Shown here one piece after another: positions 26,445 to 62,140 of a stretch of DNA of 64,000 nucleotides; the first letter of the stretch is position 1, and every line of letters begins with the position of its first letter. The notes beneath the pieces were generated by a model. It had not been told where the DNA came from. It did no database searches and saw only the letters and a list, made by a program, of their open reading frames with translations. The stretch is from positions 3,342 through 67,341 of the forward strand of contig CAYNXY010000001.1 of the NCBI GenBank assembly GCA_964401285.1. Direction: 5' to 3'. A program made the translations under genes and the position numbers. The DNA comes from an uncultured Candidatus Saccharibacteria bacterium. GTDB taxonomy: Bacteria > Patescibacteriota > Minisyncoccia > Minisyncoccales > CAYTKG01.

Positions 26445-26550
26445 GTTATTTCATTTTAACACAATCTCTTCTTTATATCTATACTCCTTTTTCTCCCAAG
26501 TATTTTTCCACAGGTTTTCCACAACCCCAATAAATTTTTGAACCTAAACG

Positions 26551-26579
26551 AGATGTGCAATACCAGGTGTTGCACATCT
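26551..26579. repeat. Dispersed palindromic element, copy 1 (AGATGTGCAATACCAGGTGTTGCACATCT)
   Basis: 10-bp perfect inverted arms AGATGTGCAA/TTGCACATCT around TACCAGGTG. It lies between ftsK (stop 26590) and recA (start 26444). Closely related copies are at 39441-39465 and 61434-61458. Confidence 0.8.
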
Positions 26580-26589
26580 TTGCATATTT

Positions 26590-28770: not shown

Positions 28771-31700
28771 TTACCCCTCATTTTTTTGGAACCCTGTACC
28801 TGCCGGGACTAACTTTCCTACAATTACGTTTTCTTTCAGGCCGCGTAAAGGATCTTTCTGGTTCCGGAGGGCCGCTTCAATGAGCACCTTGGAGGTTCGC
28901 TGGAAAGATGCAGCAGAAAGAAAACTGTCCGCACTGAGAGAAACTTTGGAAATACCAAGCAGTAGCCGTTCAGCCTCCGCCTCTTTCCCTCCAGAATCCT
29001 TAACTTTTCTGTTTTCTTCTAAAAACCTATCCCGAGTAACAGTCTCGCCGGGAAGAAAAGGAGTATCCCCCGGAGTAGTCACCTTCACCCGGGAAAACAT
29101 TCTATTGATAATAACCTCGAAGTTCTTATCATGGATTTTAACTCCTTGAGAAACATATATTCTTTGCAGTTCGGAAAGGAAATAGCGCTGAGTATACTTT
29201 TTACCGCGCAGTCGAAAAAGCTCATTCAAATCAATGCTTCCTTCACAAAGACGCTGTCCTTTTTCTACTTCATCGCCTTTTTTAACCAATATTGGCTGGC
29301 TTTGTTTAATCTTATACTCTTTAATATCGGGTTTGGTTGCCTTTTTCTTGGAAGTGGGCTTTGGTCTTATCTTCACAACATCGTTTTTAACAGCAACCAC
29401 TTTCCCGAATACTTTGGAAACAACTGCTTTTCCTTTCGGTTTTCTTATTTCAAAAAGCTCTTCAGCGCGCGGCAGACCACGGGTGATGTCCGCCTCGCCT
29501 GCAACCCCGCCTGTGTGGAATGTCCTCATCGTAAGCTGAGTCCCCGGCTCTCCAATACTTTGAGCAGCCATTATACCAACCGCCTGACCCACATCAACCA
29601 ATTTGTTATAACCCAAATCCCAACCATAACACTTCCGGCAAACCCCCCATAAACTCTTACACGTAAGAGGTGAGCGGATTTTAACTTTCTCTATCCCTGC
29701 CTCCTCCATTTTATTTGCTTTTTTCCAACCTATCATTTCACCCTTTTTAACAATTACCTTGCCGTTCTCTCCTTTAACCTCTTCTAAAGAAATACGACCG
29801 GCAACCTTCTGACCCCAATCCTGGCCTAAATCCTCAGCGTCTTTGAAGTAAACATCCACCCCCTCCTCATCACCGCAATCTTCCTCCACTACCATTACGT
29901 CATGAGCTGCGTCCGCTAAACGCCGGGTAAGATATCCTGCCTCAGCAGTACCTAATGCCTTGTCCGAAATACCTTTCCGAGAGCCGTGCGTGGAGATGAA
30001 GTACTCAAGCACACTAAGCCCTTCTTTGAAACTACTTTTGACCGGCAACTCTACAACACGTCCGGAGGGGTCAACCATAAGCCCCCTCATTCCTCCAATC
30101 TGAATCGGCTGACTCCAAGAACCTCTACAACCGGAGTCGGCCATAATGAAAACAGGGTCATGCTGGGAAAGCTTTTGCGGAACAATCTCCTCCACTTTGT
30201 TTTTCGCTTCAGTCCAGGCCTTGATGGTTCTTTCGCTTTTTTCCTCTTCTGAAAGTAAACCCTTTTCATAAAGCCCTCTTACTTCATCCGTCTCTTTTTC
30301 TGCTTCTTCTAAAATCTCCTGCTTTTCTTCAAGAATAATAAAATCATCCACACCGAGAGAGATACCGCTTTTGGTGGCCCATAAAAACCCAATATCTTTG
30401 ATGCGGCTCACATATTCTGCCGCTTTTCGAGAACCATACTCTTCTATAATTCTCCAGGTTATATCTTCCAACCGACCGGAATCAAGCCGTTCATTATAAT
30501 AAGGAAAACGGTCCGGTAAAATATCATTAAACATAATCCTTCCTACTGAAGTTTCAGTAAGCTTATCCTTCTTTGACTCCTTCACTCCTCTCACTTTTAT
30601 TTTCGCCTGGACATGAACCAATCCCCTCTCAAAAGCAGCCAGGGCTTCACGCGGGCTGGAAAAGGTTTTCCCTTCACCGGAAACTCCTTCTCTCAGAGTG
30701 GTAAGCCAATAGGAACCCATAATCATATCCTGAGAAGGGTTGATAATTGGTTTCCCGTGAGCCGGCTTGAGTAGATTCAAACTAGAAAGCATTATCTCTT
30801 TTGCTTCTTTTTGTGCTTCCTCGGAAAGCGGGAGGTGCATCGCCATCTGGTCACCATCAAAGTCAGCATTGTAAGCAGGGCAGACAAGAGGCGGTATCTG
30901 AATTGCCTTTCCTTCTATAAGGGTTGGTTCAAAGGCCTGGATAGAAAGCCGGTGCAGAGTGGGAGCTCTGTTCAAAAGAACATATTGTCCCTCCACTACA
31001 TCTTCCAAGGCAGCCCAAACCTCATCCGTTTTTTGGTCAATCATCTCTTTTGCGCTGCGTACATTGTAGGCCTCTTCTTTTTCTAAAAGCTCTTTGATTA
31101 CAAACGGTTTAAAAACTTCAAGGGCCATCTCCTTAGGAATCCCCGCCTTATGAAGGGGCAGATCTGGGCCGACAACAATTACCGCCCGGCCTGAATAATC
31201 AACTCTTTTTCCTAAAAGATTCCTTCTGAATCGACCCTTTTTACCCTTAAGCATATCGGCTAAACTTTTAAGCGGTCTTCTCCCGCCGGCAGCTGGGCGA
31301 GTAACTGTGCTGGAGCGCATACCATTGTCCACCAAAGCATCAACCGCTTCCTGAAGCATTCGTTTTTCATTCCGGACAATAACTTCCGGAGCTGAAATCT
31401 CAAGAAGGTATTTAAGCCGGTTGTTGCGGTTTATCACCCGCCGGTAAAGATCATTAAGATCAGAAGAAGCGTATCTCCCTCCATCCAACTGGACCATCGG
31501 TCTGAGCCCGGGAGGGAGAACAGGTAAAACCTTAAAAAACATCCATTCCGGACGCACGTCAGCTCTTTCCAGCCCTTCAAAAAACTTTAAACGGCGCAGA
31601 ACTTTTTTTCTCCTCGAGGAAGGTGCCTCTTCGTATTCATGACGGAGTTTCTCAATCTCTTCTTCAACATCAATGCTTTCAAATATTTCATAGAGAGCCT

Positions 31701-32361
31701 CCGCTCCTGTTTTTGCTTCAAAAACTTCTCCGTATTTCAAACTAAGACGCCTGTATTCAATCTCAGAGATAACATTGTGTCTTTTTATCATTGAAAGCTG
31801 ATCAACCGCCTTACTCCGGGCAAGACGTAGTTCCCGCAAAGCATTTTTAAGCTTTTCCTCGTCCTCTATTTCACTTTTCTTTTGCTTCACTTCGTTTTTG
31901 TACTCCTCATCTATTTCCTCCAACACCCTTTCCTTCCCTTCGTCCGATACGGAGGTGATTATATAAGAAACAAAATAAACAACGTTAGAAAGGTCACGCC
32001 GGGAAACACCAAGCACCATTCCCATTCTTGACGGGATGCCGCGTAAAAACCAAATATGAGCTACCGGCGCTGCCAAATCAATATGGCCCATCCTCTCCCT
32101 TCTTACTTTACTGCTTGTCACCTCCACCCCGCACCTGTCACATACGATTCCTTTGTACTGACGGCCTCTGTATTTTCCGCAATAGCATTGGTAATCCTTA
32201 GTCGGACCAAATATTTTTTCGCAGAACAAACCGTCTTTTTCCGGCTTGAGAGTGCGGTAGTTTATAGTTTCCGGCTCCAACACCTCCCCGTGAGACCAGG
32301 AAAAGATTTCCTCAGGAGAGGCAAGCTTGATACGAATACTTTCAAAGTCTTTTATTTCCAT
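28771..32361 (-). CDS. rpoC: DNA-directed RNA polymerase subunit beta'
   Basis: Zn-finger CDRCGVEV, the [14 protein letters not shown] catalytic motif and 1196 aa. Confidence 0.95.
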
Positions 32362-39440: not shown

Positions 39441-39465
39441 CTGTGCAATACCTGGTATTGCACAG
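39441..39465. repeat. Dispersed palindromic element, copy 2 (CTGTGCAATACCTGGTATTGCACAG), followed by a tandem GCACAGTTA duplication
   Basis: 12-bp perfect arms around a single central T. It lies 7 nt upstream of the ACD-alpha start and 30 nt downstream of ACD-beta. Confidence 0.8.
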
Positions 39466-39494
39466 TTATGCACAGTTACACGCAGGTTAAAAAG

Positions 39495-44987: not shown

Positions 44988-46214
44988 TCAAGCGCGCTTT
45001 AAAATATTTTCCATAAGCTTCATTTGAGGGAACTTTCCCAATCCTCCGCGCAGGCATGCTTTTTCGGAAAAAACAGAAACCTCATCCTTTCGCCCGCCCC
45101 AAAAAAGAACCGGGCAAGGCTGAGCACAATGCCTTTTCTTAATCGAGCAGGTCGAATGATCACAGGTAATAACAATAAAAATGTCTTGAGGGTTGTTGAA
45201 CTTTTTAATCTCCCAATCAATTTTTTCAATAAAATCTCTTTTCCTTTCATAATCACCGTCTTCGGCTAAACTATCCGTAGCTTTAATGTGAAGAAAAACA
45301 AAATCTTTTCCCCGCAAGGCCTTTTGAGCCTTTTCCACCTTCCCCGCTAAATTCGTATCAATATGTCCGTTTGCCCCCGTCACTTCCAAGACTTCCATCT
45401 TCAAACTATTAGCAACCTCTTTGTAAAGGGTTTTCCCCGCCACACAGGAAGCATCAAGCCCCCATTTTTCTTTAAAAGAAGTTATTTCCCTGCACGAAGA
45501 AGCCCCTCGCAATAAAATACAATTGGCAGGAGGGAGCCCTTCCTTTTTTCTTTTCTCGTTGAGCGAATGGTCTTCTAATAAACTACCCGTTTTTTGCAAA
45601 AATTCATTTAGAACACGGGCGGTCTTTTCCGCTTCAGAAGAGTTTTCAAGCGGTTCAATCTTTTCAAATTTTTGGGAAAGTTTGGAATAAAAAGGGTCGC
45701 CGTCTGAAACCTGCGGGCTCAGCCCCTCTCCTCGTACCACAATCCCCAACCTGTGATCGGAAGCACTTTCAATCAAAAACTCAGCTCCTTCCACTTCAAC
45801 TTTTCTTAGATCATCAATAAACTTTTTAGCATCTTTTGTTTTTATCCTCCCGGCCCTTCTATCCACCACCTCCCCCTTCTCGTTAAGCGTTCCAAAATTA
45901 CCCCGTAATGCCACATCATCTCTTTTTGTTTCAATCCCCGCCCCGCGAGCAGTAAAAAACCCTCTGCGCACACCTAGTTTTTGGGCGTCATACCCAAAAA
46001 GACCAAGATGCCCCTCTTCAGAGGTTGGCAAAGCACCACTAAAAGAAACATCCAAAAGCCCGCACTCGCCCTCCTCTGCCAAATCGTTCATAAATGGGGT
46101 GTGTGCTTCCTCAAGTGGAGTATTCCCTTGAAAATCCGGAATAGGTTCGTCACCCAACCCATCCAAAACAATAAAAAGTATCTTTTTCATTTTTTTATGT
46201 GCAATATCTACCAA
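44988..46214 (-). CDS. apgM: 2,3-bisphosphoglycerate-independent phosphoglycerate mutase, archaeal type (ApgM). The true start is probably the ATG at 46190, as the ORF track begins at a TTG.
   Basis: MKKILFIVLDGLGDEP metalloenzyme N-terminus and the ApgM-type domain order; 400-408 aa. Confidence 0.8.
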   Translation of the reverse strand: MVDIAHKKMKKILFIVLDGLGDEPIPDFQGNTPLEEAHTPFMNDLAEEGECGLLDVSFSGALPTSEEGHLGLFGYDAQKLGVRRGFFTARGAGIETKRDDVALRGNFGTLNEKGEVVDRRAGRIKTKDAKKFIDDLRKVEVEGAEFLIESASDHRLGIVVRGEGLSPQVSDGDPFYSKLSQKFEKIEPLENSSEAEKTARVLNEFLQKTGSLLEDHSLNEKRKKEGLPPANCILLRGASSCREITSFKEKWGLDASCVAGKTLYKEVANSLKMEVLEVTGANGHIDTNLAGKVEKAQKALRGKDFVFLHIKATDSLAEDGDYERKRDFIEKIDWEIKKFNNPQDIFIVITCDHSTCSIKKRHCAQPCPVLFWGGRKDEVSVFSEKACLRGGLGKFPQMKLMENILKRA

Positions 46215-46271
46215 AGCACATTTTATTTAGGTTCAATTTTTAAATCACTTGTGGAAAAGTTGTGGAAAACT

Positions 46272-61366: not shown

Positions 61367-61433
61367 CCTGTGGATAAATGTTTAACACCAGGGATTGAAC
61401 ATCCGCTTTAGGTTCATAGAGAGTTGTGTGCAA

Positions 61434-61458
61434 CTGTGCAATACCAGGTGTTGCACAG
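61434..61458. repeat. Dispersed palindromic element, copy 3 (CTGTGCAATACCAGGTGTTGCACAG), preceded by a partial TTGTGTGCAA
   Basis: The 25-bp core is identical to copy 1. It lies between the ABC ATPase stop (61460) and the permease start (61366). Confidence 0.8.
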
Positions 61459-61459
61459 T

Positions 61460-62140
61460 TTAATGTTGGTAGAATTTTAATTTGTGACCGTATATCTCTC
61501 TTAAGTTTTCGGGGGTAAGCATTTCTTTTGGTTTCCCATAACATAATTTTTCTCGAGAGAGGCAGAGCACGTTAGTAGAATAAGCGAAAACAACGTTTAT
61601 CTCGTGGGTTACAAGGATAATTGTTAACTCTCTCTCCTGCCAAAACTTGTAAAGGAGAGAATAAATGGTTTCCCGGCCCCCAACATCAATCCCGCCCATT
61701 GGCTCATCAAAAATAAGTACATCCGGTTCCGGAGCCAGCGCCCACCCGACAAGCATTCTCCTGAATTCTCCGGAAGAAAGACAAGCGGGGTTTCTTTTTA
61801 AAAACTCCGGGGAAAGCCCCACGGAGGTAAGTATCTTTTCCGCCTTTTTAGGGGGGATATCGCCTAAATTAAAAAAATCTTTTACCGTAAGAGGGAAAAG
61901 GGAAAAATTCTCTCTTTTAAGCTGTTCCGGAAGATAACTCAACTCGAGGCCTTCCTCCCAAAAAATTTTACCCTCATAATCCAAAATATTAAGCAGGGCC
62001 TGGAGAAGAGTGCTTTTCCCCGCCCCGTTAGGACCAAGGATAGTTAAAAACTCTCCCTTGTCCACACTAAAAGACAAATCGGTTACCACCTCCTCTCCTC
62101 TTCTTTTAACATTTAAGTTTTTAACTTTTAGGGCCTTCAT
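61460..62140 (-). CDS. Metal ABC transporter ATP-binding protein (ZnuC-like). The start is trimmed to MKALKV, sharing ATGA with the upstream gene.
   Basis: Walker A GPNGAGKST, signature LSSGEFRRM and Walker B LIFDEP. Confidence 0.8.
   Translation of the reverse strand: MKALKVKNLNVKRRGEEVVTDLSFSVDKGEFLTILGPNGAGKSTLLQALLNILDYEGKIFWEEGLELSYLPEQLKRENFSLFPLTVKDFFNLGDIPPKKAEKILTSVGLSPEFLKRNPACLSSGEFRRMLVGWALAPEPDVLIFDEPMGGIDVGGRETIYSLLYKFWQERELTIILVTHEINVVFAYSTNVLCLSREKLCYGKPKEMLTPENLREIYGHKLKFYQH

What the first reader, a model, noticed from the sequence alone, without database searches (positions are those of the whole stretch)
26551..26579. Three-copy dispersed palindrome CTGTGCAATACC-N-GGTRTTGCACAG, always wedged between co-directional genes
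Copy 1 (26551-26579, ftsK|recA), copy 2 (39441-39465, ACD-beta|ACD-alpha) and copy 3 (61434-61458, ABC ATPase|ABC permease) share an identical or near-identical 25-bp core. In a low-GC genome of this size, a 25-mer recurring three times by chance is essentially impossible. Each copy is a near-perfect palindrome with 12-bp arms and sits in a very short gap between two minus-strand genes that are likely co-transcribed. Copy 1 lies about 107 bp upstream of recA. No gene features explain the element. It could be a REP-like intra-operonic RNA stabiliser or processing hairpin, the operator of a global dimeric regulator, or a miniature remnant of a mobile element. Two copies carry extra partial repeats (GCACAGTTA duplicated at copy 2, TTGTGTGCAA before copy 3), suggesting replication-slippage or insertion scars.
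Basis: seen in the sequence. Interest (0 to 1): 0.75.

Follow-up and report, generated by a model that had tools for sequence, protein, structure and literature searches.

The report
REP-like palindrome of CPR bacteria
The repeated 23-25 bp palindrome is real and is a small mobile hairpin repeat (REP-like) that, in related ultra-small "candidate phyla radiation" bacteria, brackets a single-copy tyrosine (HUH/Y1) transposase gene; this is a known kind of element, apparently not yet described in this group.

Summary

An exact-match scan of 185,579 species genomes found the 21-mer in 50 loci from 22 assemblies. All but one are CPR/Patescibacteria MAGs. In five of those loci, two copies bracket a 222-aa gene with a Y1/HUH transposase domain. 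Its predicted fold is closest to the E. coli REP-associated tyrosine transposase (RAYT) bound to its REP hairpin.

I then started from seven transposase homologues chosen without regard to the palindrome. Six are bracketed by 23-nt palindromes of the same design, and the stems differ by compensatory changes that track transposase divergence.

Copy 1 sits in a ~105-nt module that is absent from the ftsK|recA spacer of the three closest relatives, so it is an insertion, not a recA operator. About 14 of 62 copies elsewhere lie in frame inside real genes, because no reading frame of the palindrome contains a stop codon.

Verdict: a REP/RAYT-type repeat, a new member of a known kind. No transposase gene lies in this window, and any effect on the mRNAs is inferred only.

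The parts
26551..26579 (.). Copy 1 of the palindrome: 14-nt arms with one T-G position; the 23-nt core is 26554-26576.
   Evidence: I13. It folds as a hairpin at -13.5 kcal/mol as RNA on the mRNA-sense strand and -10.7 kcal/mol as DNA on the + strand.
26485..26589 (+). The ~105-nt module that contains copy 1 (type-B composite): TTTTCCACA at 26504-26512 and 26515-26523, TGAACCTAAA at 26539-26548, then the palindrome. It lies between the ftsK stop (26590) and the conserved recA promoter-like sequence.
   Evidence: It is absent from the orthologous ftsK|recA spacer (45, 46 and 8 nt) in L057, L058 and L059. The same composite is seen in L023, L016 and L032.
39441..39465 (.). Copy 2: a perfect 25-bp palindrome with no accessory motifs. 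It ends directly before the AGGGGGA ribosome-binding site and the ATG (39431) of the ACD-alpha-like gene.
   Evidence: (I19). RNA hairpin about -15 kcal/mol.
39459..39478 (+). Tandem duplication of the last 10 nt of copy 2's right arm and flank (TGCACAGTTA x2).
   Evidence: Read directly from the sequence. Similar arm duplications occur next to copies in L005, L010 and L052.
61434..61458 (.). Copy 3, starting 1 nt after the stop codon (61460-61462) of the ABC ATPase gene.
   Evidence: I14. RNA hairpin -13.5 kcal/mol.
61369..61433 (-). The rest of the copy-3 doublet (type-A composite): decayed partner palindrome 61379-61401 (TGTTTAACACCAGGGATTGAACA), TTTAGGTTCA at 61407-61416, TGTGGATAA at 61369-61377, and a partial arm TTGTGTGCAA at 61424-61433.
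   Evidence: The same ~56-bp doublet layout is seen in L012, L035, L037, L043 and L022.
46197..46269 (-). Fourth element, decayed: palindrome remnant 46197-46221 (ATGTGCAATATCTACCAAAGCACAT), TTTAGGTTCA at 46226-46235, and TGTGGAAAA at 46250-46258 and 46261-46269. It lies between enolase and phosphoglycerate mutase.
   Evidence: It is orthologous to the intact copy at L023:7070 in the closest relative. The accessory motifs are identical in both genomes.

Best explanation
The palindrome is a REP-type (repetitive extragenic palindrome) element of a CPR/Patescibacteria bacterium. It is a 23-nt hairpin-forming repeat and the cognate DNA of a CPR-specific clade of HUH/Y1 tyrosine transposases (RAYT-like).

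In related genomes, a single gene for that transposase is bracketed by two copies of the very palindrome that is scattered elsewhere in the same genome. The enzyme presumably recognises the hairpin on single-stranded DNA, cuts and rejoins next to it, and so spreads or maintains the copies. This step is inferred from homology.

The window's copies are non-autonomous dispersed copies: three intact and two decaying. Copy 2 is a bare palindrome. Copy 1 and the decayed copy at 46197 are type-B composites, and copy 3 is a type-A doublet. The composites carry the accessory motifs TGAACCTAAA and TTWTCCACA.

The copies lie in short spacers between co-transcribed genes because that is where insertions are tolerated in a tightly packed genome. 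The same family also survives inside genes, because no frame of the palindrome has a stop codon.

Once transcribed, each copy forms a -13 to -15 kcal/mol hairpin inside a polycistronic mRNA. It could then act as a 3' exonuclease barrier or an attenuator, as E. coli REPs do. That effect is inference only.
For: Shown here:

1. The repeat is far beyond chance and very sharply defined. Across 415 kb of loci plus the window there are 62 exact 21-mers, 2 with one mismatch and 2 with two mismatches, and the last two are compensatory.

2. The exact 21-mer occurs in 50 loci from 22 assemblies. All but one are CPR MAGs. It is absent from 2.9 million viral contigs.

3. In L027, L041, L047, L050 and L014, a 222-aa gene has one palindrome about 28 nt before its ATG and another 4-12 nt after its stop.

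4. That protein scores 36 bits against Pfam Y1_Tnp (cut-off 23). Its only NCBIfam hit is REP_Tyr_transpos. It has invariant N-H-x-H and Y-x-H-x-N motifs. An AlphaFold model (pLDDT 88) has as its best PDB match 4ER8, the E. coli RAYT bound to a REP hairpin (E = 1e-5, TM-score 0.65 normalised by target length), followed by the ISDra2, IS608 and IS200 TnpA structures.

5. Unbiased test from the protein side: of seven homologues (52-70% identity) fetched by protein sequence alone, six are bracketed on both sides by 23-nt palindromes of the same design. The variants are TGTCCAAC..GTTGGACA, TGGCCAAC..GTTGGCCA, TGTTCAAAGCC..GGCTTTGAACA, TGTTAAACACCGAGTGTTTAACA, TGTGCAAAACCGAGCTTTGCACA and TGTTTAACACCGAGTGTTGAACA.

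6. Stem positions covary. Pair 7-23 is GC 12, UA 7, CG 2 and never unpaired, and 0 of 500 shuffles reach the observed covariation score.

7. In three MAGs (JBAYHD01, CAYIMJ01, JAJXUR01), the dispersed copies have the same core as the copies flanking the transposase gene.

8. The Y1 gene is the most recurrent gene family within 1.5 kb of palindromes. Each 90%-identity cluster is on one or a few contigs. The order SMC - transposase - RNase R is shared by three MAGs.

9. Mobility and decay are visible. The copy-1 module is absent at the orthologous site in three relatives. The 46197 copy is decayed where the relative keeps an intact one. In an epimerase family, 7 of the 120 database homologues, plus the orthologue in locus L011, carry the palindrome as a net +5-aa insertion.
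Against: - No transposase homologue lies in the 64-kb window.
- None was found in the loci captured from the two MAGs richest in copies: CAZCSI01, the closest relative with 19 exact copies, and JBASFO01 with 8. Both are incomplete MAGs, so this is not decisive.
- The window's T variant (GTGCAATACC) has not been seen flanking any transposase gene.
- The protein is below NCBI's equivalog cut-off for RAYT (30 versus 80 bits) and is not found by a sequence profile against the PDB.
- The repeat lacks the GTAG/CGTC tag at the hairpin foot that most described REPs carry.
- Dyad-symmetric covariation alone cannot separate a hairpin from a symmetric duplex site.
- No binding, cleavage or transcript data exist.
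Confidence: 0.8

Rival explanations
1. It is a miniature derivative (MITE/PATE) of an active, selfish IS200/IS605-type insertion sequence. The transposase gene plus its two flanking palindromes would be the autonomous element, not a domesticated single-copy RAYT with a long-lived REP population.
For: The fold also matches IS608, ISDra2 and IS200 TnpA. The transposase gene sits in different neighbourhoods in distant genomes. The composite forms, with conserved sequence at a fixed 5-6 nt from the hairpin, resemble IS200/IS605 ends.
Against: Only one transposase copy was seen per MAG among the captured loci. Each protein cluster lies on one or a few contigs. Synteny is conserved among three relatives. 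The palindrome is far more numerous than the gene. The best structural match is RAYT rather than an IS TnpA. No TnpB-like second gene is adjacent.
Confidence: 0.1
2. It is the operator of a dimeric transcription factor, for example an SOS/LexA-like or global regulator, and the copies mark a regulon.
For: It is a perfect dyad reaching the centre. Copy 1 lies upstream of recA. The core is strongly conserved across genomes.
Against: The copy-1 module is absent upstream of recA in three close relatives, whereas the promoter-like TTGTGATAAAAT next to the ATG is conserved. About 14 copies are in frame inside genes. Copies lie after stops, before starts and between convergent genes with no fixed spacing. 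Single half-sites and degenerate sites are almost absent. The palindrome brackets a transposase gene and covaries with it.
Confidence: 0.04
3. It is primarily an RNA-level device, an intercistronic terminator, attenuator or stabiliser hairpin selected by the host, and its link to the transposase is incidental.
For: The hairpins have -13.5 to -15.4 kcal/mol on the mRNA-sense strand. They sit 1-30 nt after stop codons in the window.
Against: There is no U-tract on the mRNA-sense strand; the only terminator-like call is on the antisense strand of copy 1. In copies 1 and 3 the mRNA-sense strand carries the C-A mismatch and the opposite strand the G-T pair. Host hairpins do not need an identical 23-nt sequence across genomes. 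Copies also occur inside genes and flanking the transposase gene.
Confidence: 0.04
4. It is a DNA-uptake-signal-like or other host 'signature' sequence that accumulates by biased uptake or repair. CPR bacteria depend on DNA uptake.
For: It is shared by many related genomes. It occurs in coding regions at permissive positions without a simple length change in RsmI and MnmA.
Against: Density is low, about one per 15-20 kb in the window, against roughly one per kb for known uptake signals (own knowledge). Single 11-nt half-sites are not enriched. Only full palindromes occur. The epimerase case is a net insertion.
Confidence: 0.02

Closest known systems
REP / REPIN elements with their RAYT (TnpA_REP) transposase, as in E. 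coli and Pseudomonas (PMC3479197, PMC3116915, PMC5581495)
   Same: It is a short hairpin-forming repeat dispersed in intergenic spacers. The same repeat brackets a single Y1/HUH transposase gene. Repeat and transposase co-vary between lineages. Doublets with a ~33-nt linker recall REPINs and BIMEs. The best structural match of the protein is the E. coli RAYT-REP complex 4ER8.
   Different: The host is a CPR bacterium with a tiny genome and few copies per genome (3 to about 20 exact copies per MAG). The stem is a perfect 23-nt palindrome with a 3-nt apex and no bulges. There is no GTAG/CGTC foot tag. The protein is too distant for sequence detection against the E. coli RAYT. About a fifth of copies lie in frame inside genes.
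IS200/IS605 insertion sequences (IS608, ISDra2) and their miniature derivatives (PATEs)
   Same: The transposase has the Y1 HUH fold. Recognition would be of subterminal hairpins on single-stranded DNA, with conserved sequence at a fixed short distance from the hairpin.
   Different: The gene is not seen in multiple copies, and no TnpB-like partner gene is adjacent in the called genes. Both ends carry the same palindrome rather than distinct left and right ends.
Rickettsia palindromic elements (RPEs; own knowledge, Ogata et al. 2000)
   Same: Palindromic repeats are found in frame inside conserved protein genes at permissive surface or linker positions.
   Different: RPEs are 100-150 bp and have no associated transposase. 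Here the unit is 23 nt and adds about 5 residues.
E. coli BIMEs (REP - linker - REP, some linkers bind IHF; own knowledge)
   Same: Two palindromes are separated by a conserved ~33-nt linker that carries its own motifs.
   Different: The linker motifs here are TGAACCTAAA and TTWTCCACA. The second matches the DnaA-box consensus. No binding protein is known for either.

Membership tests
REP / REPIN | Short (20-40 nt) palindrome able to form a stable stem-loop | tested here: met
   Arms are 12-14 nt. Folding energy is -13.5 to -15.4 kcal/mol as RNA and -9.4 to -11.2 kcal/mol as DNA, better than most or all shuffles.
REP / REPIN | Many dispersed copies in one genome, mainly extragenic | tested here: inconclusive
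   There are 3 intact and 2 decayed copies in 64 kb. MAG CAZCSI01 has 19 exact copies and JBASFO01 has 8. The window's full genome is not available, and about 14 of 62 copies in relatives are genic.
REP / REPIN | The same repeat flanks a RAYT gene in the same genome | tested here: inconclusive
   Met in related genomes: 5 loci found through the palindrome and 6 of 7 found through the protein. In three MAGs the dispersed and flanking copies are identical. Not shown for the window's own lineage: there is no Y1 gene in the window or in the captured CAZCSI01 loci.
REP / REPIN | Conserved tetranucleotide (GTAG or CGTC) at the foot of the hairpin (PMC3733652, PMC6006769) | tested here: not met
   Only T at -1 and A at +1 are conserved. 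GTAG/CTAC/CGTC/GACG lies within 12 nt of a foot in 6 of 61 copies.
REP / REPIN | Doublets of two REPs in inverted orientation (REPIN) | tested here: inconclusive
   Doublets with a 54-56 bp period exist (L006, L012, L015, L035, L037, and window copy 3 with its decayed partner). The central base usually differs (A versus T). Because the unit is itself a perfect palindrome, orientation cannot be established, and the linker reads as a direct 56-bp unit.
RAYT (REP-associated tyrosine transposase) | Y1 HUH fold with an HUH motif and a catalytic tyrosine | tested here: met
   Pfam PF01797 at 36 bits, above the cut-off of 23. N91-H92-x-H94 and Y152-x-H154-x-N156 are invariant. The top Foldseek hit is 4ER8_A.
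RAYT (REP-associated tyrosine transposase) | Reaches NCBIfam's equivalog cut-off for REP_Tyr_transpos (NF047646) | tested here: not met
   30 bits against a cut-off of 80. A profile of the family finds no PDB sequence.
RAYT (REP-associated tyrosine transposase) | Single copy per genome, inherited vertically (PMC5581495) | tested here: inconclusive
   One copy per MAG among the captured loci. Clusters lie on one or a few contigs. The order SMC - gene - RNase R is shared by three MAGs. No complete genomes or gene-versus-species trees were examined.
RAYT (REP-associated tyrosine transposase) | Binds and cleaves its REP as single-stranded DNA | not testable with these tools
   Needs purified protein and oligonucleotides.
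Transcription-factor operator (including an SOS/LexA box) | Conserved at orthologous promoters, at a fixed position relative to regulated genes, with degenerate variants, and not inside genes | tested here: not met
   It is absent upstream of recA in three relatives. Positions are variable. Copies are genic and in frame. Degenerate sites are almost absent.
Intrinsic terminator | G+C-rich stem followed by a U-run on the transcribed strand | tested here: not met
   No U-run follows any of the three hairpins on the mRNA-sense (minus) strand. The only consensus match is on the antisense strand at copy 1.
Known RNA families (Rfam 15) | A match at the family's gathering score | tested here: not met
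   Only two tRNAs are found in the window.

The most novel reading that the evidence does not exclude
CPR bacteria carry an old REP-RAYT partnership in which the palindrome has been recruited by the host.

Three observations are compatible with this:
- Copies are kept identical at the nucleotide level at orthologous sites, even inside essential genes: 0 of 21 core differences against about 27% in the flanks between the epimerase orthologues.
- A second, unrelated palindrome has entered the same protein loop.
- Composite forms carry pairs of DnaA-box-consensus motifs one helical turn apart.

The copies might therefore act in chromosome biology, for example by titrating DnaA, structuring the nucleoid or marking sites for single-strand processing, rather than being mere passengers.
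Probability: 0.1. Interest if true: 0.75.

Novelty: new member of a known kind. Interest (0 to 1): 0.42.

Why it matters
CPR/Patescibacteria have some of the smallest and most tightly packed bacterial genomes, and repeats are not expected to persist there. A REP-RAYT pair in this group matters in three ways:

- It extends this class of long-lived intragenomic replicators to a major uncultivated lineage.
- It gives a clean natural series of compensatory stem changes matched to transposase divergence, which is useful for working out how these enzymes read their hairpins.
- It shows that such repeats can be written into protein-coding genes, because the palindrome is free of stop codons in all six frames.

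Practically, it flags a 23-mer that can break assemblies and mislead motif or operator searches in CPR MAGs, for example by looking like an SOS box upstream of recA.

Tried and rejected
1. SOS/LexA box because of recA. Rejected: the whole module is missing from the ftsK|recA spacer of L057, L058 and L059, and a conserved promoter-like sequence lies between the module and the ATG. The paper on Patescibacteria LexA motifs is not in the library.

2. Replication origin or DnaA-box cluster because of TTTTCCACA/TTATCCACA. GC skew is monotonic across the window. The flanking genes are glycolytic, recA and transporter genes. The motif is enriched only inside the elements: 5 of 8 window hits, and none in 20 kb of syntenic DNA from the relative. 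It is kept only as a side note.

3. Promoter reading of TTWTCCACA...TGAACCTAAA. The hexamer spacing does not fit a sigma-70 type promoter, and the module occurs in both orientations relative to downstream genes.

4. Known RNA family. None found.

5. Phage or plasmid vehicle. There were 0 matches in viral contigs.

6. Metagenome scan for the T variant, aiming to find its transposase. The one hit (L056) is a permease gene encoding AIPGIAL, which is a coding coincidence. L013 (Acidimicrobiaceae, ribulose-phosphate epimerase-like GATPGVALNP) also looks like a coincidence. About two chance matches are expected in 596 Gb by my own estimate.

7. Exact look-up of the window's RecA to locate the source genome. 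It is not on record.

8. Genic copies as simple 24-nt insertions. This does not hold. RsmI is 2 residues shorter than its relatives at that spot, MnmA has no gap, and DprA has +4 residues. Only the epimerase family, with close homologues, shows a clear net +5 residues.

9. Sequence-profile search of the transposase family against the PDB. It found nothing, so a structure prediction was needed.

Full report
**Observation.**
- Copy 1: 26553-26577, ATGTGCAATACCAGGTGTTGCACAT.
- Copy 2: 39441-39465, CTGTGCAATACCTGGTATTGCACAG.
- Copy 3: 61434-61458, CTGTGCAATACCAGGTGTTGCACAG.

With up to three mismatches allowed, no match is expected in shuffled sequence. The shared core is the 23-mer TGTGCAAYACC-W-GGTRTTGCACA. 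Pfam confirms the neighbouring genes: FtsK|RecA, ATP-grasp_5|CoA-ligase alpha-like, and ABC ATPase|ABC-3 permease, all on the minus strand. Rfam finds only two tRNAs in the window.

Two further, decayed copies were missed. One is at 61379-61401, 56 bp from copy 3. The other is at 46198-46220, between enolase and phosphoglycerate mutase.

**Distribution.** I scanned one genome per species (185,579 species) for GTGCAAYACCNGGTRTTGCAC. It returned 50 loci from 22 assemblies. All but one are MAGs labelled Saccharibacteria, Parcubacteria, Paceibacterota, Nomurabacteria, Minisyncoccia or simply 'bacterium'. In the current NCBI taxonomy these names all fall under one phylum, Minisyncoccota. I therefore do not claim spread across classes.

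- The exception (L013, Acidimicrobiaceae) and the single metagenome hit (L056) are protein-coding coincidences.
- Viral contigs hold no copy.
- The window is syntenic at about 70% nucleotide identity with contig 13 of MAG CAZCSI01 (L023). Its RecA is 88% identical to that MAG's RecA. The source is therefore a CPR bacterium close to CAZCSI01.
- Over 415 kb of loci plus the window, the match spectrum is extremely sharp: 62 exact, 2 with one mismatch, and 2 with two mismatches that compensate each other.

**The link to a transposase.** In L027, L041, L047 and L050 two palindromes lie about 727 bp apart and enclose one gene. L014 has the same layout with a compensated variant, GTTCAAC...GTTGAAC. 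The upstream copy lies about 28 nt before the ATG, and the downstream copy 4-12 nt after the stop.

The 222-aa product has these properties:
- It matches Pfam Y1_Tnp above the gathering score.
- Its only NCBIfam hit is REP_Tyr_transpos, although below the cut-off.
- It has invariant HUH (N-H-x-H) and Y-x-H-x-N motifs.
- A profile of the family finds nothing in the PDB by sequence.
- An AlphaFold model (pLDDT 88) has as its best solved match 4ER8, the E. coli REP-associated tyrosine transposase bound to a REP hairpin. The ISDra2, IS608 and IS200 transposases follow.
- It is the most recurrent gene family within 1.5 kb of palindromes.

**Unbiased test from the protein side.** The family has 574 database homologues. 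All the named ones come from CPR organisms, and most clusters are on a single contig. I fetched seven homologues by protein sequence only, at 52-70% identity to the L027 protein. Six are bracketed on both sides by 23-nt palindromes of the same design. The seventh has one hairpin upstream only.

| Identity to L027 protein | Flanking palindrome |
|---|---|
| 76-100% | TGTGCAACACCWGGTGTTGCACA |
| 70% | TGTCCAACACCTGGTGTTGGACA |
| 68% | TGGCCAACACCTGGTGTTGGCCA |
| 64% | TGTTCAAAGCCWGGCTTTGAACA |
| 55% | TGTTAAACACCGAGTGTTTAACA |
| 53% | TGTGCAAAACCGAGCTTTGCACA |
| 52% | TGTTTAACACCGAGTGTTGAACA |

On an alignment of 21 such copies, stem pair 7-23 is GC 12, UA 7, CG 2 and never unpaired. Pairs 11-19 and 12-18 also change on both sides. 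No shuffle out of 500 reaches the observed covariation score, and slid registers collapse it.

Outside the core, the first flanking pair is T..A in 57 of 62 copies. The next three positions are complementary in 42-52% of copies, with all four pair types represented.

In three MAGs (JBAYHD01, CAYIMJ01, JAJXUR01), the dispersed copies have the same core as the copies that flank the gene. This is the defining architecture of REP/RAYT systems as described in PMC3479197, PMC3116915 and PMC5581495.

**Mobility and decay.** The ftsK|recA spacer is 45, 46 and 8 nt in the three closest relatives (L057 = CAZCSI01, L058, L059), against 145 nt in the window. The extra ~105 nt is exactly the copy-1 module. 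A promoter-like TTGTGATAAAAT next to the recA ATG is conserved in all four. This rules out a conserved recA operator and shows an insertion.

The opposite case is the element between enolase and phosphoglycerate mutase. It is intact in CAZCSI01 (L023:7070) but has a scrambled centre in the window, while its accessory motifs are unchanged. Twenty kilobases of syntenic CAZCSI01 DNA contain neither the palindrome nor the accessory motifs.

**Anatomy in this lineage.** In the window and CAZCSI01 the palindrome occurs bare (copy 2) or in two composite forms.
- Type A is a doublet: palindrome - TTWTCCACA - N6 - TATGAACCTAAA - N6 - palindrome, with a period of about 56 bp. Window copy 3 with its decayed partner is of this type.
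- Type B is TTTTCCACA-NN-TTTTCCACA - N15 - TGAACCTAAA - N4-6 - palindrome. Window copy 1, the 46197 copy, L023, L016 and L032 are of this type.

Every intergenic TGAACCTAAA in the window and in the CAZCSI01 loci sits next to a palindrome or a remnant of one. The module occurs in both orientations relative to downstream genes, and hexamer spacings do not fit a promoter. There is no GTAG/CGTC tag at the hairpin foot.

**Genic copies.** None of the six reading frames of the palindrome contains a stop codon. About 14 of the 62 copies in relatives lie in frame inside genes confirmed by Pfam. They read CATPGVA(Q/H) or VQHQVLH. The genes are an ABC ATPase, four orthologous reverse transcriptases, two epimerases, DprA, MnmA, a Mur ligase, a glycerate-kinase-like protein and two RsmI genes.

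- Comparison with distant homologues does not show a simple 24-nt insertion.
- Among 120 close epimerase homologues, 7, plus the orthologue in locus L011, carry Y/H-CATPGVAQ-K in place of K-S-DKH. That is a net gain of five residues, and one of them is already decayed (YRATPSVAQ).
- Between the two epimerase loci held as DNA (L011, L026), the 21-nt core has 0 differences against about 27% in the 60 flanking bases (my count). The core is therefore kept at the DNA level.
- In three other homologues, the same loop carries a clean six-residue insertion, LPAQAG. This is a different perfect 20-bp palindrome, GCCTGCCTGCGCAGGCAGGC.

**How it most likely works.**

*Shown:*
- The repeat family, its restriction to CPR genomes and its bracketing of a Y1/HUH gene.
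- Stem covariation with that gene.
- Insertion polymorphism and decay.
- Tolerance inside genes.

*Inferred from homology to the E. coli RAYT and IS608-type enzymes:*
- The transposase recognises the hairpin on single-stranded DNA.
- It catalyses cleavage and joining next to the hairpin, which disperses or maintains the copies.

*Inferred only, about the host effect:*
- On the mRNA-sense strand the copies fold at -13.5 to -15.4 kcal/mol, with no U-tract. They are more likely exonuclease barriers or attenuators than terminators.
- Copy 2 ends directly before the ribosome-binding site of the ACD-alpha-like gene, and copy 3 starts 1 nt after a stop codon. Effects on translation or decay are therefore possible.
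- In copies 1 and 3 the G-T pair is on the non-coding strand and a C-A mismatch is on the mRNA strand. This does not favour an RNA-selected hairpin.

**Weak points.**
- No transposase gene lies in the window or in the captured loci of CAZCSI01 and JBASFO01.
- The T variant has not been seen next to a transposase gene.
- All genomes involved are incomplete MAGs.
- Whether the gene is a domesticated RAYT or an active insertion sequence is not settled.

**Literature.** Searches found no paper linking REP, REPIN or RAYT to CPR, Patescibacteria or Saccharibacteria.

**Verdict.** This is a genuine, non-random repeat, best explained as a REP/RAYT-type element in a CPR bacterium. That makes it a new member of a known kind. 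Its unusual traits are a perfect tag-less palindrome, in-frame genic copies and composite forms carrying DnaA-box-like motifs.

Noticed in passing
window 26504-26523, 46250-46269, 61369-61377; also L023, L016, L012, L035, L037: The accessory motif TTWTCCACA equals the DnaA-box consensus (TTATCCACA in some copies). In type-B composites two copies are direct repeats 11 bp apart. In the window the motif is enriched only inside the elements (5 of 8 hits).
   Followed up: partly
L064:1494-1513 (epimerase gene); proteins P0132, P0134, P0146: A second, unrelated perfect 20-bp palindrome, GCCTGCCTGCGCAGGCAGGC, is inserted in frame (+6 residues, LPAQAG). It sits in exactly the protein loop where other homologues carry the main palindrome (CATPGVAQ). 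The loop is either a hot spot or simply tolerant of palindrome insertion.
   Followed up: partly
window 26448-26484 (minus strand); L057:9270-9303; L058; L059: A promoter-like sequence with an extended -10 (TTGTGATAAAAT; TTGTGTTAAAAT in the window) ends about 10 nt before the recA ATG. It is conserved in four relatives, which suggests a very short recA leader.
   Followed up: no
window 39459-39478 and 61424-61433; L005:4690-4716; L010:5635-5655; L052:10727-10755: Partial direct duplications of one arm lie immediately next to the palindrome in several genomes, with nested shorter repeats in L052. These look like slippage at the hairpin or abortive processing products.
   Followed up: no
L004, L019, L034, L048 (reverse transcriptase genes); L051:12312-13686: Four orthologous RVT_1 reverse transcriptases carry the palindrome in frame just before their GLPLGNLTSQ motif, which from memory is the signature of diversity-generating retroelements. 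In L051 a bAvd + RVT_1 pair lies 1.6 kb from the transposase gene.
   Followed up: no
L001:5398-6099, L029:6972-7574, L045:7532-7993: A second, distant group of Y1 transposase homologues (30-37% identity to the main family) lies near palindrome copies in three MAGs. Their own flanks were not examined.
   Followed up: no
L013:436-456 and L056:3940-3960: These exact 21-mer matches outside CPR genomes lie in a ribulose-phosphate-epimerase-like gene (GATPGVALNP) and a permease gene (AIPGIAL). They look like coding coincidences and show that the motif can arise from ordinary Gly/Ala/Pro-rich protein segments.
   Followed up: partly
window 1-64000: GC skew is negative almost throughout, and most long genes, including all those flanking the elements, are on the minus strand. 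The window therefore lies within one replichore with genes co-oriented with replication. The region includes rpoC (28771-32361), a probable rpoB next to it (by synteny with L057), a PPDK-like gene, the ACD genes, enolase and phosphoglycerate mutase.
   Followed up: no
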